Positions 3,603 through 32,955 of a stretch of 64,000 nucleotides of DNA are shown here, one piece after another. How positions within the stretch are numbered: the stretch's first letter is position 1; each line of letters starts with the position of its first letter. A program made the translations under genes and the position numbers. Source of the DNA: Actinomycetota bacterium (lineage in GTDB: Bacteria; Actinomycetota; UBA4738; HRBIN12); NCBI GenBank assembly GCA_038249195.1, contig JBBRWM010000004.1, positions 138,218 to 202,217 of the forward strand, in the 5' to 3' direction. The notes beneath the pieces are model-generated. The model was not told where the DNA came from and made no database searches. It worked only from the letters and a program-made list of their open reading frames with translations.

Positions 3603-3674
3603 GCCGGAGTAGCTCAGGGGCAGAGCAACCGCCTCGTAAGTGGTAGGTCGTGGGTTCGAATCCCACCTCCGGCT
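3603..3674 (+). tRNA. tRNA-Thr (anticodon CGT)
   Basis: Cloverleaf read by hand. The acceptor GCCGGAG pairs with CTCCGGC. D-arm is GCTC...GAGC. The anticodon stem is ACCGC/GTGGT with loop CTCGTAA (anticodon CGU). T-arm is GTGGG TTCGAAT CCCAC. Discriminator is T. Confidence 0.9.
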
Positions 3675-3724
3675 CGTTCGTGATCGCTCCGAAGGGTCTC
3701 GTGCTATTGCTAGACTCCGCCGCG

Positions 3725-23567: not shown

Positions 23568-23664
23568 TCGGCACGGATCGCCTCACGGCGGGTCCCGGCT
23601 CCACCCCGGTGCTCGGTTCGGGTTCCGACCTCTGTCCTCCGCTGACGGTGTCGTTCGACCCGCC

Positions 23665-24423
23665 TCAGATGCCCCGCAGCTCTTCCGGCACGAGGTCGGC
23701 GAACGTCCACCCGGTCCACAGGTCGGCCGCGATGTCCGCGAGCGGCACCTCGACACCGTGCCGCTCGAAGTAAGGGCCCATCCGCTCCAGGTCGCGCCGT
23801 AGGAAGGCCTCCGCGTGACGGTTCTTGCGCGGATCGACCGCCTGGGGGAGGTCGATCACCGTGAGGTGCCCCTCCCAGATGAGCACGTTGTACGGGGAGA
23901 GGTCGGCGTGCACGACGTCGTTGAACAGCATCAGCTCGACGGCGCGCAGCAGTTGCTCCAACAGGTCCTGGGCTTCCCCGCGATCGTGGGGGACGTAGGA
24001 CCGAAGCTGCGGTGCCGCGACGTCGAGGTCGCCGAGGTAGGACATCAGGATCGCATCGTCGGTGCGCTCGATGGGCACCGGCACCGGCACCGGTGCCGTT
24101 GCGGCGCTGAGCATCCGAAGGGTTTCCCACTCGCGGTTGACCCAGATGCCGCCCTGCACTTCACGGCCGAACGTGGTCTTCTTCTCCAGCGCGGAACGGA
24201 TGCGCCGCTCCTTGATCCACTCGCCGTCGCGGTAGAGGCCGTCGTCGCGGAAGTCCCGCCGGTTCAGCGGGTGGTACGCCTTCAAGGCCAGGAGATCGTG
24301 GCCCGTGGTGCGGCGGTTGGCGCGGCACAGGTGGACCGAAGCCTCCTTGCCGCGCTTGATCGGTCGGATGATCGATTCGATGAGCCCTTCATCGAGGAAG
24401 TGCTCGAACGCTGCATCGTGCAA
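23665..24423 (-). CDS. RIO-type serine protein kinase
   Basis: The catalytic loop 'VVHADLSPYNVLIWEGHLTVIDLPQAV' is present, with 'ASVHLC' and 'ALKAYH' in the ATP-binding region. The start is proposed at TTG preceded by 'GAAAGGAG'. Confidence 0.75.
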   Translation of the reverse strand: MHDAAFEHFLDEGLIESIIRPIKRGKEASVHLCRANRRTTGHDLLALKAYHPLNRRDFRDDGLYRDGEWIKERRIRSALEKKTTFGREVQGGIWVNREWETLRMLSAATAPVPVPVPIERTDDAILMSYLGDLDVAAPQLRSYVPHDRGEAQDLLEQLLRAVELMLFNDVVHADLSPYNVLIWEGHLTVIDLPQAVDPRKNRHAEAFLRRDLERMGPYFERHGVEVPLADIAADLWTGWTFADLVPEELRGI

Positions 24424-29169: not shown

Positions 29170-29990
29170 CGCCGGACCGTTCGAGGCCCCGCCGGCCCAC
29201 CTCGCACCGAACCGATGCGGGCACGGTGGGCGGGCGACGTGCCGTCACCGAGGCGATCCGCGCAGGCGCCGCGAAGGAGGTGCTGATGACGGAGCCGGCG
29301 AAGACCACGCAGGGCTCGCGAGCGCTCCTGCAGGCCGCCGCGGCGGCCCAGGTTCCCGTGCGCGTCGTCGGGCGGGAGCGGCTCGACGCCCTCGCGGACG
29401 ATCATCAGGGCGTCGTGGCTCGCCTCCGCGCCGCCGCCGCCGTGGCGGCCGCGCGCGAACTGACGGAACGCGACCTCGCGGGGTTCCCCTTCGGCCCCGA
29501 TGCGATCGTCGTGATCCTCGATGGGGTGACGGACCCCCAGAACCTCGGCGCCGCCGGGCGCTCGGCCGAGGCCGCCGGTGCCGCCATGCTCGTGACGCGG
29601 ACCCGCCGCGCCGCGGGTGTCACCGACGCCGCCGTGCGCGCATCGGCCGGCGCCCTGATGCACCTGCCTCACGCGAGGGTCGCGAACATCCCGCGCGCGA
29701 TCGAGCGCCTCCAGGCGTCCGGGTTCTGGGTGGTGGGGCTCGACGCGGATGCGGTCGACACGATCTACGCGGCGTCCTGCCCCGACGGCCGCGTGGCCGT
29801 GGTGATCGGCAGCGAAGACGAGGGAATGGCGCGACTCACCCGAGAACGCTGTGACGCCCTCGTCTCGCTTCCGGTCCAGGGACGCGTCGCGTCGCTGAAT
29901 GCCGCGGCCTCGCTCGCCGCTACCCTCTACGGATTCGTCCTGGCCTCGCCCGGCCGGGCCGGGCGCCTTCGCGCCAGGGAGCCGGAGTAA
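29166..29990 (+). CDS. TrmH/SpoU-family rRNA 2'-O-methyltransferase (RlmB-like)
   Basis: SpoU motifs 'VILDGVTDPQNLGAAGRSAEAAG' and 'VIGSEDEGM' are present. The GTG start overlaps the ispF stop (GTGA). Confidence 0.85.
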   Translation: MTPDRSRPRRPTSHRTDAGTVGGRRAVTEAIRAGAAKEVLMTEPAKTTQGSRALLQAAAAAQVPVRVVGRERLDALADDHQGVVARLRAAAAVAAARELTERDLAGFPFGPDAIVVILDGVTDPQNLGAAGRSAEAAGAAMLVTRTRRAAGVTDAAVRASAGALMHLPHARVANIPRAIERLQASGFWVVGLDADAVDTIYAASCPDGRVAVVIGSEDEGMARLTRERCDALVSLPVQGRVASLNAAASLAATLYGFVLASPGRAGRLRAREPE

Positions 29991-30000
29991 ACTCGCCGCG

Positions 30001-30074
30001 GCCGGCGTGGCGCAGTCTGGTAGCGCAAGCGATTTGTAATCGCTAGGTCGTCGGTTCGAATCCGACCGCCGGCT
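30001..30074 (+). tRNA. tRNA-Thr (anticodon TGT)
   Basis: Cloverleaf read by hand. The acceptor GCCGGCG pairs with CGCCGGC. D-arm is GCGC...GCGC. The anticodon stem is AGCGA/TCGCT with loop TTTGTAA (anticodon UGU). T-arm is GTCGG TTCGAAT CCGAC. Confidence 0.9.
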
Positions 30075-30083
30075 CCGTGTAGT

Positions 30084-30118
30084 CATCGGGTGGATGTCCT
30101 CGATGACGACCGGAACCA
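30084..30118. repeat. Direct repeat copy 1 (catcgggtggatgtcctcgatgacgaccggaacca); the partner is at 32229..32264
   Basis: The two copies are about 90% identical and 35-36 bp long. Together they bracket the LipJ-like paralog array. Confidence 0.5.
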
Positions 30119-30156
30119 CATGTCGAAGAGGTCGGACTCGTCCGGATCCCAACGGC

Positions 30157-31515
30157 TCAGGCCGTCTCGCTCACCACCCCGTACAGGTGCCAGCGGTCGG
30201 GGACACCCTTGAGCTCATGCTCCCCGGCGTCGTCGAACGCGAGGCCTGAGCCGGCGACGAGATTCTTGACCGTCGAGGAAACGAGGACCTGCGAGGGCTC
30301 CGCGAGCCCTGCGACGCGAGCACCGACATGTACCGCCAAGCCTTGCACGTCTTCGTCGGCAAGCTCGACCTCGCCCGTGTGGCATCCGGCGCGCACTTCG
30401 AGTCCGAGGTCACGAACGCAGCGGACGATCGCTTGTGCGCATCGCACCGCGCGCGCCGGTCCATCGAAGGTGGCCAAGAGCCCGTCGCCGGTTGTGTGGA
30501 CATAGGTGCCTCGGTAGCGTTCGATCTCGGACTTCGCTCGGCTCGTATGCGCGGCCAGGACCTCCTTCCACGCAGCGTCGCCGATGGCAGCAGCCCGCTC
30601 GGTCGATCCGACGATATCGGTGAACAAGACCGTCAGGAGGATCCGATCGGGCGGTCGAGCGGCGGGACGTCCCGTGACGAACGCCTCGATCGCATCGGCC
30701 ACAGCGTCGACGGGACCGAGGTACTCAGGCGTGTCGTGCCCGGGAAGCTCGATGAGCGTTCCAGCCGGCACCCGATCGGCGACGTACCGAGAGACACCGA
30801 AGGACTCGCCCGGGTCATCCGCCCGATGAAGGACGAGCGTGGGGACGCGGATCGTCGACAGGATCGGTCGGATGTCGGTGGCCCTGTACAAGGACATCAG
30901 GGCGGCAGCACCCGTTGGGCTCGCAGCCATCTGGGTCAGCTGCAGCCCCCAGTCGAACGCATGCTCATCCCCCAGGACACTGGGGGCGGACTCGACCAGG
31001 TTCTTCCTGAACCACTCGCGGGTTCCCCAGCCGATCGCGACGCCATCGATGTACTTGTCCCACTCCTCGTCGGTCCAGCCGAACGGGTAGTCCTCGGTGG
31101 CAAGGCCACCGGGATTCATCGCGTACAGGATCAGCGCACGGGTCCGCTCGGGATGGGAGGCCGCGAACAGCGCCGCCTGATGGCCGCCTTCCTGGAAACC
31201 CGCGATCACGGCGTCCGTCGATCCCACCTCGTTCAACACGGCGGTGAGATCCTCCACGAGCACCTCGAGCGAGGGGAGGTCGCCCGGTGAGAATCGATCC
31301 GACAGTCCGACTCCTCGCCGGTCCACCACGATGAGTCGAGCGAACGACGCGATCCGACGCAAGAGATGTGCCCAGGGTGGGTAATGCCACATCCACACGA
31401 GATGGGAAACGAATCCCTCGAGGTACACGAGGTCCACAGGACCGTCGCCGACGACCTGATAGGCGATGATGGCCCCATCCGTAGCCTTCGCGTATCGAAC
31501 TTCAGGAACCTTCAC
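30157..31515 (-). CDS. Alpha/beta-hydrolase + class III adenylate/guanylate cyclase fusion protein (LipJ-like)
   Basis: The N-terminus carries an alpha/beta-hydrolase fold. The C-terminal cyclase homology domain is 'LTVLFTDIVGSTERAAAIGDAAWKEVLAAH...GTYVHTTGDGLLATF'. The GTG start is preceded by 'GGAAGGA'. Confidence 0.85.
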   Translation of the reverse strand: MKVPEVRYAKATDGAIIAYQVVGDGPVDLVYLEGFVSHLVWMWHYPPWAHLLRRIASFARLIVVDRRGVGLSDRFSPGDLPSLEVLVEDLTAVLNEVGSTDAVIAGFQEGGHQAALFAASHPERTRALILYAMNPGGLATEDYPFGWTDEEWDKYIDGVAIGWGTREWFRKNLVESAPSVLGDEHAFDWGLQLTQMAASPTGAAALMSLYRATDIRPILSTIRVPTLVLHRADDPGESFGVSRYVADRVPAGTLIELPGHDTPEYLGPVDAVADAIEAFVTGRPAARPPDRILLTVLFTDIVGSTERAAAIGDAAWKEVLAAHTSRAKSEIERYRGTYVHTTGDGLLATFDGPARAVRCAQAIVRCVRDLGLEVRAGCHTGEVELADEDVQGLAVHVGARVAGLAEPSQVLVSSTVKNLVAGSGLAFDDAGEHELKGVPDRWHLYGVVSETA

Positions 31516-31639
31516 CCTCGAATCCTTCCCCTAGGAGGGTCGCGCTGCAACCGAGCTCCCCACCATCTGCGACCCGTAGAGTTGAGAGATCAGGGTCGAG
31601 TCGCAACCAGACCGTATGTCACAAGGATGATGGTCAACC

Positions 31640-32170
31640 CGTCTCACTCATCACCTTGTACAGGTGCCAGCGGTCGGGCACGCCCTTCAGCCCGTGTTCA
31701 CCGGGCGTCCTCGAACGCGAACCCACAACCTGCGACGAGATCCTTGACCGTGGACGACACGAGGGCCTCGGACGCAGCCGCACGGTTCGATCTCATCCGT
31801 GATGTGCTCCTGATCCTTGTAAGGGAGGCGATCCTCGCCCGGGAGTTGCACGTACTCGGCGCCGAGGATGGGTTCGGCGAAGTAGCGGTTGTCGTTGGGC
31901 ATGTCCCCGGCGCGATAAATGATCAGTCGTGGGAACGTGGATCGCCGGCAGGATGGCTCGGACGTCGTTTCCGCCAGCGAACTTGATCAGCCGGAGAACG
32001 GCCAGCGTCATGAGCAGGCGCTCTTTGAGGGATCTCCCACCCCTACTCGATGTGAGAGGACCACGGCTTGAGGTAGACCATGTCCACGGGTGCGTCGCCG
32101 ACGACCTGGTGCGCGATGTGCACCCCGTCTACGGTCTTCGCGTACCGGGTCTCCGGGATCTCCTCCGGCA
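31640..32170 (-). pseudogene. Decayed paralog of the adjacent LipJ-like hydrolase-cyclase gene, with an internal deletion and frameshifts
   Basis: The N-terminal fragment 'MPEEIPETRYAKTVDGVHIAHQVVGDAPVDMVYL' matches 'MKVPEVRYAKATDGAIIAYQVVGDGPVDLVYL' of the intact copy and is followed by a stop. Downstream pieces match in shifting frames ('DVRAILPAIHVPT', 'IYRAGDMPNDNRYFAEPILGAEYVQLPGED'). The C-terminal remnant 'ALVSSTVKDLVAG' is also recognisable. At 31640-31700 the DNA is ~80% identical to the 3' end of the intact gene. Confidence 0.6.
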
Positions 32171-32228
32171 TCCTGACCTTCCCCACCCACCCGGCGGCAA
32201 GGGCTGAGGCCCGCGACGCCGAGAAGTC

Positions 32229-32264
32229 CATCGGGTGGACGTCCTCGACCGACGACCGGAACCA
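32229..32264. repeat. Direct repeat copy 2 (catcgggtggacgtcctcgaccgacgaccggaacca)
   Basis: This is the partner of 30084..30118. Confidence 0.5.
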
Positions 32265-32325
32265 GCACCTCAAGCCTGTCAGCCACGATGCCGATGTTCC
32301 GGTGGTCGGACGGGCATCGGCGCTC

Positions 32326-32396
32326 GCGTACGTAGCGCGACGTACGCAAGCTCAGGGAATCGCGGAATTCCCGGGCGGGATCGCCCGCCGTACGGT
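32326..32396. promoter_or_regulatory. Cluster of inverted repeats upstream of the Tad-like operon
   Basis: Three palindromes lie within 70 bp and about 100 nt upstream of the TadE-like start. They are GCGTACGT-AGCGCG-ACGTACGC, GGGAAT-CGCGGA-ATTCCC and GGCGGG-ATCG-CCCGCC. A fourth, CCGTACGG, follows. The hexamer CGTACG recurs three times. Confidence 0.3.
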
Positions 32397-32463
32397 TTCG
32401 GCGGACGGGACGAGCGGACCATTTGGCCCGGCGTTCGGGCGGATGAGGACGGAGAGGACACCC

Positions 32464-32955
32464 ATGCACGAGCATCGCCGGCTCGCAGTGGCAGAGCGGA
32501 GGGGGCCATCGAAGGATCGTCGCGGCGCGGGCTCGCTCCGCGACGAGGGAGGCGCGGCGGCCGTCGAGTTCGCGATCGTGGCTTCTATCTTCTTCCTCCT
32601 GGTCTTCGGGATCATCGACTTCGGGTTCGGGTTCCACACCTGGAACGGGACCGCGAACGCGGCGCGCGAAGGGGCTCGGCGCGCCGCGGTCGACCCGGTC
32701 GTCGGCGACATCGTGGCCCGCACGACGCAGTCCGTCGACTACCTCGACCCGGCTCGCTTGACGGTCTCCGTCACCTGCAGCAGCGGTGGTGGCGCCTTCA
32801 CCGGTTGCCCGGCCTCCTCGGGCTGGGTGGAAGGCGATCTGGTGCGCGTCACCGTGGACTATCGGTATCAGTACCTCACGCCCCTGGGGAGCATGGTCGG
32901 CCTCGGCGACGACCTGAACCTGCACTCGGTCTCGGAAGCACGGTACGAAGGGTGA
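32464..32955 (+). CDS. TadE-like (Flp pilus assembly pseudopilin-like) protein
   Basis: The TadE-domain signature 'GAAAVEFAIVASIFFLLVFGIIDFGFG' is present. An RBS 'GGAGAGGA' precedes the ATG. Confidence 0.75.
   Translation: MHEHRRLAVAERRGPSKDRRGAGSLRDEGGAAAVEFAIVASIFFLLVFGIIDFGFGFHTWNGTANAAREGARRAAVDPVVGDIVARTTQSVDYLDPARLTVSVTCSSGGGAFTGCPASSGWVEGDLVRVTVDYRYQYLTPLGSMVGLGDDLNLHSVSEARYEG

What the first reader, a model, noticed from the sequence alone, without database searches (positions are those of the whole stretch)
30076..32290. Tandem array of LipJ-like hydrolase-cyclase genes, one intact and one decaying, next to tRNA-Thr
Immediately 3' of tRNA-Thr(TGT) lies an intact alpha/beta-hydrolase + class III nucleotidyl cyclase gene (30157..31515). 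A second copy follows that has lost most of its hydrolase core and cyclase domain and carries frameshifts. Its N-terminal, middle and C-terminal fragments are still readable at 32170, ~31800-31990 and ~31650-31760. A 35-36-bp direct repeat (~90% identical) occurs 3' of the intact gene's stop, between the tRNA and that stop. It occurs again in the N-terminal extension of the decayed copy (where it encodes 'SSVEDVHPMDF'; the copy at 30084 encodes 'VVIEDIHPMTT'). This suggests unequal crossing-over generated the array and that a further copy may once have extended into the tRNA locus. This is a snapshot of the birth and death of a cAMP/cGMP signalling gene family.
Basis: seen in the sequence. Interest (0 to 1): 0.6.

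Follow-up and report, generated by a model that had tools for sequence, protein, structure and literature searches.

The report
Foreign cyclase gene block beside tRNA-Thr
A 2.2-kb block found only in this lineage, carrying one intact LipJ-like cyclase gene, the wreck of an old paralogue and two scraps of an unrelated small gene, was inserted next to tRNA-Thr; it is an ordinary decaying gene islet, not a gene family born on the spot.

Summary
This includes tRNA-Thr(TGT), an intact 452-aa alpha/beta-hydrolase + class III cyclase gene, a collapsed second copy, and a ~40-nt direct repeat.

The interpretation does not hold, for three reasons.

1. Four close relatives (82-95% nt identity in the flanks, full synteny) have no copy at this tRNA. 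Window 30079-32265 is a 2,187-nt insertion specific to this lineage.
2. The repeat is not an N-terminal extension of the cyclase gene. Both copies are truncated 3' fragments of an unrelated, very conserved ~108-aa gene ("Z", weakly DUF6176-like). That conservation, not recent duplication, explains the ~92% identity.
3. The pseudogene is not a recent duplicate of its neighbour. Gene1 ranks 73rd of 120 family members in similarity to it, and the 82% identity at the 3' ends reflects a C-terminus conserved across the whole family.

The junctions show only short microhomology. There is no integrase and no tRNA-derived att repeat.

The most likely story is that a fragment of a decaying LipJ-like array from elsewhere was captured by illegitimate recombination, and only gene1 was kept intact. 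Such arrays, littered with internally deleted copies, are common in related soil Actinomycetota.

This is ordinary biology and of low interest.

The parts
30001..30076 (+). tRNA-Thr (anticodon TGT). This is the conserved chromosomal landmark immediately left of the insertion.
   Evidence: ARAGORN and Rfam tRNA at 70.6 bits. It is present in the same position after rlmB in relatives L046, L047, L049 and L090.
30079..32265 (.). Lineage-specific insertion of 2,187 nt. In L046 and L090 the same site holds a 100-134-nt filler; in L047 and L049 it holds only ~10 nt.
   Evidence: blastn homology with the relatives stops at window 30078 and resumes at 32266, with 92-96% identity to L046 and 94-95% to L090. 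For L047 and L049 (82-83% identity) the breaks are at 30075/76 and 32283/84. GC is 64.9% against 69.1% for the window.
30080..30133 (-). Z_A, an internal 3' fragment of a small conserved gene 'Z'. It reads ..SDLFDMWFRSS/IEDIHPM.., carries two 1-nt deletions, and butts against the tRNA 3' end.
   Evidence: nhmmer with a Z DNA profile matches window 30133->30070 to profile positions 244-312 of 342, E 5.8e-12. tblastn finds the pieces FDMWFRSS and IEDIHPM in two frames. Aligned sequences are shown.
30081..30118 (+). It lies inside Z_A.
30157..31515 (-). Gene1, an intact LipJ-like protein of 452 aa. It has an N-terminal alpha/beta-hydrolase fold with Gln108 at the nucleophile position, and a C-terminal class III nucleotidyl cyclase domain with Asp300, Asp344 and Arg400 present. 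It has a GTG start with GGAAGGA 7-13 nt upstream.
   Evidence: ORF; Pfam; NCBIfam NF058673 at 390 bits over residues 2-446; PDB 1YBT at E 1e-47; column counts. The start context was read.
31516..31633 (.). 118-nt spacer between the two cyclase genes. It is 59% GC and nothing recognisable was found in it.
   Evidence: There is no significant Z or LipJ match. A protein-level Z hit at E~0.6 is no better than background, and nhmmer finds nothing here.
31634..32171 (-). LipJ-like pseudogene. It retains family positions ~1-48, ~203-276 and ~402-451. Two large deletions removed ~154 aa (including the nucleophile elbow) and ~125 aa (most of the cyclase domain). There are four frame changes and an in-frame TGA at 32043-32045.
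   Evidence: The stop codon is from the ORF list.
32196..32264 (-). Z_B, the 3'-terminal fragment of gene Z. It reads WFRSSVEDVHPMDFSA.. and then diverges, with a 3-nt insertion and the stop codon lost. It ends ~25 nt upstream of the pseudogene's ATG.
   Evidence: nhmmer matches window 32264->32196 to profile positions 262-326 of 342, E 1.4e-12. tblastn gives E down to 8e-8 against Z proteins. It is 39/40 identical to the Z gene of L051.
32225..32264 (+). Copy B of the direct repeat. It lies inside Z_B.
32266..32463 (+). Conserved leader upstream of tadE, left intact by the insertion. Chromosomal homology resumes here.
   Evidence: Alignments A1 and A2. TadE (163 aa in the relatives) starts at 32464.

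Best explanation
Window 30079-32265 is a small, decaying, horizontally or illegitimately acquired gene islet. It sits between the 3' end of tRNA-Thr(TGT) and the conserved leader of the tad pilus operon.

Read on the minus strand, the contents are:
1. the last ~70 nt of an unrelated small gene Z;
2. a LipJ-like gene collapsed by two large internal deletions plus frameshifts;
3. a 118-nt spacer;
4. an intact LipJ-like gene (gene1);
5. a second ~55-nt fragment of Z.

The 'direct repeat' is simply the overlap of the two Z fragments (profile positions 262-~300). It is similar because that stretch of Z is almost invariant wherever Z occurs.

The two cyclase genes are old paralogues of the kind found side by side in tandem arrays in other soil Actinomycetota. 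They did not duplicate here. The block arrived after this lineage split from relatives that differ by ~5% in DNA. It replaced ~14-100 nt of spacer, and its junctions show only short microhomology. This points to illegitimate recombination rather than an integrase (inferred).

Gene1 alone has been kept intact and is probably functional. By analogy with M. tuberculosis LipJ/Rv1900c (inferred, not shown here) it would be a homodimeric class III cyclase making cAMP, with a hydrolase-fold domain that lacks the serine nucleophile and is probably regulatory rather than catalytic.
For: Empty sites.
- L046 (rlmB 95% identical), L090 (94-95% nt), L047 and L049 (82-83% nt) share the order clpC..carD-ispDF-rlmB-tRNA-Thr | tadE-tad/VWA-rcpC-P450-GAF kinase.
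- None has any gene between the tRNA and tadE.
- The breakpoints are at window 30078 and 32266.
- The relatives hold no Z or LipJ remnants.
- The spacer end TCCTCAC..ACCA, shared by the relatives, is missing from the window. This fits an insertion accompanied by a small deletion.

The repeat is gene Z.
- The 20-mer core hits 40 metagenome contigs.
- About 20 of these carry a 108-aa ORF ending ..SDHEFDTWFRSSIEDIHPMDFSAPPPPMPVRQL*.
- A Z DNA profile hits the window only at the two repeat sites, at E 1e-12 and 6e-12.
- X_A and X_B are not each other's nearest Z relatives.

Old paralogues.
- Gene1 ranks 73rd of 120 against the pseudogene overall.
- Per fragment its ranks are 17, 86, 97, 82 and 4.
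- The C-terminal 30 residues are nearly invariant across the family.

Related arrays.
- Tandem arrays occur in L002, L006, L009, L010 and L020.
- Internally deleted N+C derivatives and C-terminal stubs sit inside arrays in L091-L094.

Gene1 intact.
- It matches LipJ over its full length.
- Its cyclase domain is ~60% identical to Rv1900c.
- The invariant cyclase residues are present.
- It has no frameshift in 1,359 nt, whereas ~660 nt of neighbouring remnants carry about five small indels and two large deletions (the comparison is my inference).

No integrase or att site.
- Synteny with the relatives is complete on both sides.
- The repeat does not resemble the tRNA (p 0.5-0.7).

Composition.
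- Insert GC is 64.9% against 69.1% for the window.
- Gene1 GC3 is 0.78 against 0.81-0.89 in neighbouring genes.
Against: - No donor was found. The best non-self homologue of gene1 is 58% identical. No public locus examined has Z next to a LipJ-like gene.
- The order of the Z fragments is circularly permuted: the 3' end lies upstream of the genes and a more 5' piece lies downstream. A single simple capture does not explain this, so an extra event or a repeated or circular donor must be assumed.
- The compositional deviation is mild.
- The tree of window, L046 and L090 is unresolved (all pairs ~5-6% apart). 'Insertion after the split' therefore rests on parsimony, with L047 and L049 as outgroups.
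- Microhomology at the junctions (11/14 at the left, 4 nt at the right) could be chance in 69% GC DNA.
- Expression and activity of gene1 were not tested.
Confidence: 0.7

Rival explanations
1. The array was born in place at tRNA-Thr by unequal crossing-over. One copy then decayed, and a third copy was lost into the tRNA locus. The repeat marks the unit boundary.
For: Two homologous genes lie in tandem on the same strand. A repeat follows gene1 and precedes the pseudogene. The terminal pseudogene fragments are somewhat closer to gene1 than to the typical family member, with ranks 17 and 4 of 120.
Against: Four syntenic relatives have zero copies at the site. The middle fragments are further from gene1 than the family median. 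The divergence between the two copies (30-56% aa identity) far exceeds the ~5% DNA divergence that bounds the age of the insertion. The repeat is a fragment of an unrelated gene and is absent from the spacer between the two copies.
Confidence: 0.05
2. The block is the remnant of an integrase-mediated genomic island that targeted tRNA-Thr, and the ~40-nt repeats are its attL and attR.
For: The location is right at a tRNA 3' end. The block is bracketed by direct repeats, specific to this lineage, and lower in GC. The site is a hotspot: L046 carries two extra 15/16-nt copies of the tRNA 3' end (p 0.0005).
Against: There is no integrase or recombinase in or beside the block. The repeats do not include or resemble tRNA sequence. 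The repeats are absent from all the empty sites, so there is no attB. They are coding fragments of a conserved gene found in ~20 unrelated contigs with no tRNA nearby.
Confidence: 0.07
3. The block derives from a circular or tandemly repeated 2,145-bp unit [Z 3' fragment - LipJ2 - LipJ1] that was opened or copied within Z. This gives slightly more than one unit length and therefore terminal redundancy. Alternatively, a local tandem duplication of the unit was followed by deletion of most of the copy nearest the tRNA.
For: The two Z fragments overlap (profile 244-312 and 262-326). Their order is circularly permuted, which is what a unit cut within Z predicts. The outer ends of the repeats coincide within 1-3 nt with the insertion boundaries.
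Against: The two copies differ by two indels and two substitutions in 40 nt, and they are not each other's closest Z relatives. A recent common origin is therefore not shown. No such unit was found in any public contig. Arrays in relatives have 2-8-nt spacers and no Z.
Confidence: 0.12
4. The block is ancestral, and all four relatives lost it by deletion.
For: L046 and L090 hold an unexplained 100-134-nt filler at the site, which could be a deletion scar.
Against: This requires at least two independent deletions with the same boundaries, which also restored the short spacer shared with the outgroups L047 and L049. The filler has no similarity to the block. No orthologue of gene1 above 58% identity exists in 5.8 billion proteins.
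Confidence: 0.04
5. The block is an assembly chimera or a product of sequencing errors.
For: The window comes from a metagenome-assembled genome.
Against: An independent Logan assembly reproduces 16 kb across both junctions with 2 mismatches and 0 gaps.
Confidence: 0.02

Closest known systems
Mycobacterium tuberculosis LipJ / Rv1900c (NCBIfam NF058673; cyclase domain structures PDB 1YBT, 1YBU)
   Same: It has the same two-domain architecture over the full length: alpha/beta-hydrolase fold followed by a class III cyclase homology domain (residues 2-446 on profile 6-448/449). The cyclase domain is ~60% identical, E 1e-47. The metal-binding Asp pair and the transition-state Arg are present.
   Different: Gene1 scores 390 bits against an equivalog cut-off of 800, so it is a homologue and not an orthologue. 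The nucleophile position of the hydrolase fold is Gln, not Ser. It comes from an uncultured soil actinomycete, in a lineage where the family forms tandem arrays.
Tandem arrays of LipJ-like paralogues in other Actinomycetota MAGs (L002, L006, L009, L091-L094)
   Same: These have several diverged copies (40-50% identical) head to tail on one strand. They are interspersed with internally deleted derivatives that retain the N- and C-termini, and with C-terminal stubs. The window's pair looks like a two-member sample of such an array.
   Different: Copies in those arrays are separated by 1-8 nt, and their short derivatives are still open reading frames. In the window the spacer is 118 nt, the derivative is frameshifted, and the pair is flanked by fragments of an unrelated gene.
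tRNA-linked genomic islands and islets
   Same: The block lies within 3 nt of a tRNA 3' end. It is absent from close relatives, has lower GC, carries accessory cargo and is decaying.
   Different: It has no integrase, and no direct repeats derived from the tRNA 3' end. The repeats are absent from the empty sites. The junctions show only microhomology.
Gene Z: an uncharacterised ~108-aa protein family, weakly similar to Pfam DUF6176
   Same: The two repeat copies match its 3' coding region at E ~1e-12 at the DNA level and 81-94% at the protein level over 16 residues.
   Different: Only ~55 and ~70 nt survive, and both fragments are disrupted. Intact Z genes elsewhere are not linked to cyclase genes or tRNAs. 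The DUF6176 match is below Pfam's cut-off (21.5 against 27 bits).

Membership tests
Class III nucleotidyl cyclase (Pfam PF00211 Guanylate_cyc) | Profile score above the gathering threshold | tested here: met
   Gene1 residues 295-441 score 34.0 bits against a cut-off of 21.9. The match to the solved Rv1900c cyclase domain is E 1e-47.
Class III nucleotidyl cyclase (Pfam PF00211 Guanylate_cyc) | Two metal-binding aspartates and the transition-state arginine | tested here: met
   Asp300 (FTDIVGST), Asp344 (GDG) and Arg400 are present, and each is invariant in 120/120 family members. Assigning these columns to those roles rests on general knowledge of class III cyclases.
Class III nucleotidyl cyclase (Pfam PF00211 Guanylate_cyc) | Cyclase activity and substrate (ATP or GTP) | not testable with these tools
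   This needs an enzyme assay. The position aligned with the substrate-specifying residue is His340, and the family shows Asp/His/Asn/Lys there.
LipJ equivalog (NCBIfam NF058673) | Full-length hydrolase + cyclase architecture | tested here: met
   Residues 2-446 align to profile positions 6-448 of 449.
LipJ equivalog (NCBIfam NF058673) | Score above the curated equivalog cut-off | tested here: not met
   390.4 bits against a cut-off of 800. Gene1 is a homologue, not an orthologue of mycobacterial LipJ.
Catalytic alpha/beta-hydrolase (lipase/esterase) | Nucleophile Ser in the G-x-S-x-G elbow | tested here: not met
   Gene1 reads G-F-Q-E-G, with Gln108 at that position. Only 33 of 120 family members have Ser there.
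In-situ tandem duplicate (unequal crossing-over) | The two copies are each other's closest relatives | tested here: not met
   Gene1 ranks 73rd of 120 against the pseudogene. The middle fragments rank 86th and 97th.
In-situ tandem duplicate (unequal crossing-over) | Related genomes carry at least one copy at the same site | tested here: not met
   There are zero copies in L046, L047, L049 and L090.
Integrase-type tRNA genomic island | Integrase or recombinase gene in the island | tested here: not met
   The 2,187-nt block holds only gene1, the pseudogene and the Z fragments. The flanks are syntenic with the relatives.
Integrase-type tRNA genomic island | Flanking direct repeats that duplicate the tRNA 3' end, or an attB present in empty sites | tested here: not met
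   The repeat versus the tRNA gives p 0.47-0.68. The repeat is absent from all four empty sites.
Integrase-type tRNA genomic island | Absent from close relatives, with deviant composition | tested here: met
   Absence. Composition: GC 64.9% against 69.1%, and GC3 0.78 against 0.81-0.89, which is only a mild deviation.
Pseudogene | Homology to a coding family interrupted by frameshifts, stop codons or deletions | tested here: met
   Five colinear fragments lie in three frames. Family positions ~49-202 and ~277-401 are missing, and there is an in-frame TGA at 32043-32045.
Pfam DUF6176 (for gene Z) | Profile score above the gathering threshold | tested here: not met
   The best intact Z homologue scores 21.5 bits against 27. 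There is no NCBIfam hit.

The most novel reading that the evidence does not exclude
The block is one copy, plus ~50 nt of terminal redundancy, of a 2,145-bp circular or tandemly amplified cassette [Z fragment - LipJ - LipJ] that can move between sites without an integrase. This would be a vehicle spreading LipJ-like cyclase genes, and could help explain their expansion into arrays in soil Actinomycetota.
Probability: 0.06. Interest if true: 0.55.

Novelty: new member of a known kind. Interest (0 to 1): 0.2.

Why it matters
This matters mainly as a correction. What looked like a gene family being born at a tRNA is a small foreign block in decay, and the tell-tale 'repeat' is two scraps of an unrelated gene. 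The case shows that short, well-conserved direct repeats can be coding relics rather than recombination footprints. It also shows that similarity between the 3' ends of paralogues can reflect family-wide constraint rather than recency.

Biologically it adds one more example of three things:
- tRNA 3' flanks as hotspots for indels;
- the rapid turnover (tandem arrays, internally deleted derivatives) of LipJ-like hydrolase-fold/cyclase genes in uncultured soil Actinomycetota;
- selective retention of one cAMP-signalling gene while its neighbours rot.

Nothing here opens a long-standing question.

Tried and rejected
- Repeat as a degenerate copy of the tRNA 3' half (att site). Local alignment was no better than shuffles.
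- Repeat as a known RNA or motif. Rfam finds only the tRNA. There is no other copy in the window, none in viral contigs, and none in the 44 LipJ-like loci.
- A third Z remnant in the 118-nt spacer, which would have made a [Z-LipJ] repeating unit. The protein-level hit at E~0.6 is no better than dozens of background hits, and the DNA profile finds nothing. Rejected.
- Z as a regular partner or N-terminal extension of LipJ-like genes. There is no Z in any LipJ locus and no LipJ gene in any Z locus. The N-terminal extensions of long family members are unrelated.
- Z next to tRNAs elsewhere. None was found in 18 Z loci.
- LipJ-like genes preferentially next to tRNAs. This holds for 2 of ~24 related loci (L004 tRNA-Gln, L013 tRNA-Ala). 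By my estimate that is not beyond chance (p~0.08).
- Plasmid or phage origin. No meaningful DNA or protein match was found in PLSDB.
- Remnants of the block in the relatives' fillers. None were found.
- A donor for the pseudogene. The search with the concatenated fragments found no close orthologue, only family members and short derivatives.
- Conserved neighbours of Z. ORF lists around Z in eight loci were too noisy to show any.
- Literature. The Shenoy 2004 survey is not held as body text, and no paper mentions DUF6176.
Full report
**1.

- ARAGORN and Rfam place tRNA-Thr(TGT) at 30001-30076 on the + strand.
- On the minus strand, 30157-31515 is an uninterrupted 452-codon ORF.
  - It has Pfam Abhydrolase_1 and Guanylate_cyc domains, both above threshold.
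  - It matches NCBIfam 'bifunctional lipase/adenylate cyclase LipJ' over its full length at 390 bits. This is below the 800-bit equivalog cut-off.
  - Its cyclase domain matches the solved Rv1900c/LipJ domain at E 1e-47 (PDB 1YBT/1YBU).
- Upstream of it on the same strand, 31634-32171 holds five colinear pieces of a second family member in three reading frames.
  - These correspond to family positions 2-48, 203-226, 223-276, 402-431 and 429-447.
  - About 154 residues are missing, including the nucleophile elbow. About 125 more are missing, covering most of the cyclase domain.
  - There are frameshifts and an in-frame TGA.
- Against gene1 alone the three best tblastn scores are 56.6, 44.3 and 26.9 bits. 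In 200 shuffles the best score averaged 16.5 and never exceeded 24.3.
- The direct repeat is real. 30081-30118 and 32225-32264 share 37 of 40 positions with two 1-nt gaps. Its 20-mer core occurs exactly twice in 64 kb, against 0.04 expected.
- An independent Logan assembly reproduces the region with 2 mismatches and no gaps in 16 kb.

**2. Close relatives have nothing at this site**

I used the adjacent rlmB gene (29286-29990) as an anchor and retrieved four relatives:

| Locus | Similarity to the window |
|---|---|
| L046 | rlmB 95% identical; flanks 92-96% nt |
| L090 | flanks 94-95% nt |
| L047 | flanks ~82% nt |
| L049 | flanks ~83% nt |

- All four share the gene order clpC ... radA-like, carD, ispD, ispF, rlmB, tRNA-Thr | tadE, tad/VWA, rcpC, P450, GAF-histidine kinase.
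- In all four the tRNA is followed within 330-420 nt by tadE, with no gene in between.
- Homology with the window stops at 30078 and resumes at 32266. The window therefore carries a 2,187-nt block that the others lack.
- In L047 and L049 the tRNA is followed after ~10 nt by CCTCAAGCC, which is the start of a strongly conserved tadE leader.
- L046 and L090 share a 100-134-nt filler there. Its last ~14 nt (TCCTCAC..ACCA) are homologous to the short spacer of L047 and L049, and are missing from the window.
- With L047 and L049 as outgroups, the parsimonious reading is an insertion with a small deletion in the window's lineage, after a split marked by only ~5% DNA divergence.
- The relatives' spacers contain no trace of the block.
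- No protein above 58% identity to gene1 exists in the 5.8-billion-protein collection.

**3. The repeat is two scraps of an unrelated gene**

- A metagenome scan with the 20-mer core returned 40 contigs.
- In about 20 of these the match extends tens of bases both ways. It lies at the 3' end of a ~108-codon ORF ending ...ATSDHEFDTWFRSSIEDIHPMDFSAPPPPMPVRQL*. I call this gene Z.
- Z is 70-84% identical in protein across those contigs. It has only a sub-threshold resemblance to DUF6176, no NCBIfam model, and no mention in the literature library.
- A DNA profile of Z hits the window at exactly two places:
  - 32264->32196 matches profile positions 262-326 of 342, E 1.4e-12.
  - 30133->30070 matches profile positions 244-312, E 5.8e-12.
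'SSVEDVHPMDF' is in frame. 'VVIEDIHPMTT' follows a 1-nt deletion.
- Long family members have unrelated extensions.
- Z is not linked to LipJ-like genes in any of 20 Z loci, 44 LipJ loci or 4 further array loci. It is also not linked to tRNAs.
- This stretch of Z is almost invariant at the DNA level. X_B is 39-40 of 40-44 positions identical to the Z of contig L051. X_A is closer to L069 (40/44) than to X_B (38/44). The ~92% identity of the two copies therefore says nothing about a recent duplication.

**4. The two cyclase genes are old paralogues**

- I compared 120 family proteins against the pseudogene region. Gene1 ranks 73rd by summed score.
- Fragment by fragment it ranks 17th (N), 86th and 97th (middle), 82nd and 4th (C-terminal).
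- The 82% nucleotide identity at the 3' ends (30162-30290 versus 31639-31768) falls on the segment STVKDLVAGSGLxFEDAGEHELKGVPDRWHLYRVV. This segment is nearly invariant in the whole family.
- The copies are 30-56% identical in protein. Their duplication is therefore far older than the ≤5% divergence that bounds the insertion. They arrived together, already diverged.

**5. Context from related arrays**

- LipJ-like genes form tight tandem arrays of 2-4 diverged copies in many Actinomycetota MAGs, including L001, L002, L006, L009, L010 and L020.
- Searching with the concatenated pseudogene fragments revealed short annotated ORFs. These fuse the N-terminal ~25-45 residues directly to part of the cyclase C-terminus (P0243 116 aa, P0258 180 aa, P0302, P0317 and others).
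- Two that I looked up sit inside arrays of three or four full-length copies, alongside 87-aa C-terminal stubs.
- Deletions with endpoints in different array members necessarily leave N...C fusions. The window's pseudogene may therefore be the collapsed remnant of more than one copy. This is an inference, and it fits the uneven fragment ranks.
- The family's birth-and-death dynamics are thus real, but they play out in arrays elsewhere. The window holds a transplanted two-member sample.

**6. How the block got there**

- There is no recombinase in the block, and the flanks are syntenic.
- The repeat neither contains nor resembles tRNA sequence, and it is absent from the empty sites. An integrase/att mechanism is therefore not supported.
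- At the left junction, Z homology runs on into the complement of the tRNA 3' end (ACTxCxCGGxGCCG, 11 of 14). At the right junction, 4 nt (ACCA) are shared with the relatives' filler.
- I read these as microhomologies of an illegitimate recombination event. This is inferred, and chance cannot be excluded in 69% GC DNA.
- One feature remains unexplained. On the coding strand the 3' end of Z comes first and a more 5' piece comes last, with a ~40-50-nt overlap.
  - That permuted order is what a unit cut within Z would give if the donor were circular or tandemly repeated with a period of 2,145 nt.
  - It would also arise if a local duplication were later mostly deleted.
  - I could not discriminate these options, and no donor was found.
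- The site is clearly unstable. L046 has two extra 15/16-nt copies of the tRNA 3' end.

**7. Gene1 is probably functional**

- It has a plausible ribosome-binding site, GGAAGGA, 7-13 nt before the GTG start (read).
- It is homologous to LipJ over its full length, and every invariant cyclase residue is present (D300, D344, H379, E382, R400).
- The ~660 nt of neighbouring remnants carry about five small indels, two large deletions and a stop codon. Gene1 has none in 1,359 nt. At the same indel density roughly ten would be expected, so selection has protected it. This is an inference, and some of the decay may predate the juxtaposition.
- Its hydrolase fold has Gln at the nucleophile position. 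Only 33 of 120 relatives have Ser there. In this family the domain is probably a regulatory or ligand-binding module rather than a lipase.
- By analogy with Rv1900c, whose cyclase domain forms dimers (PDB 1YBT/1YBU; mechanistic details are from my own knowledge), gene1 would act as a dimeric adenylyl cyclase.

**8. Verdict**

The features are real and the story is ordinary. A decaying, lineage-specific islet sits at a tRNA flank and carries one retained cAMP-signalling gene. The 'repeat' and the 'similar 3' ends' are products of sequence conservation, not of recent recombination. It is a new member of known kinds and of low interest. A small residual possibility remains that the permuted Z ends betray a circular or tandem cassette.

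Noticed in passing
window 32266-32463 (+), upstream of tadE; also L046:10928-11128, L090:2818-3018, L047:10880-11076, L049:10812-11009: The ~200-nt leader of the tad pilus operon is far better conserved than the neighbouring coding DNA. It is nearly identical even in relatives whose flanks are only 82% identical. It contains perfect palindromes (GCGTACGTAGCGCTACGTACGC and GGGAATCGCGGAATTCCC). It has no Rfam match. It may be a regulatory region or a structured RNA. With five sequences only one compensatory pair was seen.
   Followed up: partly
L046:10794-10835 (relative of the window; same site as window 30079): Directly after tRNA-Thr, L046 has two extra degenerate copies of the tRNA 3' end (GACCGCCAGCTCCGT, 15/16). 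These look like att scars of past integration and excision. L090 has the same filler without them. The tRNA flank is a hotspot in this clade.
   Followed up: partly
window 23571-23671 versus L046:2672-4378 (also L047, L049): The relatives carry about 1.7 kb between clpC and the RIO1 kinase gene, encoding an ECF-type sigma factor and a 320-aa protein. The window has only ~100 nt there. This is a second indel between these close genomes.
   Followed up: no
gene1 residue 108 (window ~31192-31194) and the family alignment: In this LipJ-like family the alpha/beta-hydrolase nucleophile position is Ser in only 33 of 120 members; the others have Leu, Glu or Gln. The cyclase catalytic residues are invariant. 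In most members the 'lipase' domain looks like a pseudo-enzyme or sensor module.
   Followed up: partly
L091:6001-6351 (P0243), L092:1032-1574 (P0258, seen in 7 contigs), L091:2274-2537 and L092:3-266: Arrays of LipJ-like genes in other metagenomes contain in-frame, internally deleted 'mini' genes with the N-terminal ~40 aa fused to part of the cyclase C-terminus. They also contain 87-aa C-terminal stubs, tightly packed between full-length copies. P0258 recurs in several samples, so some of these may be expressed proteins rather than debris.
   Followed up: partly
window 32080-32955 (+): The automatic gene call for TadE (291 aa) is over-extended. It runs back across the Z_B fragment and the pseudogene N-terminus. 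Relatives have a 163-aa TadE whose start corresponds to ATG 32464.
   Followed up: yes
L004:7445-7516 (tRNA-Gln) and L013:7378-7453 (tRNA-Ala): In two other MAGs a LipJ-like gene ends 30-90 nt from the 3' end of a convergent tRNA gene, the same geometry as in the window. Two of ~24 loci is not clearly more than chance.
   Followed up: partly
window 30186-30200 and 31663-31677 versus 30062-30076: The coding sequence of the conserved VPDRWH motif in both cyclase copies is a 13/15 inverted match to the tRNA-Thr 3' end (CCGACCGCCGGCTCC). This is probably coincidence in GC-rich DNA.
   Followed up: no
window 3603-3675 (+): A second tRNA-Thr (anticodon CGT) lies 26 kb upstream.
   Followed up: no
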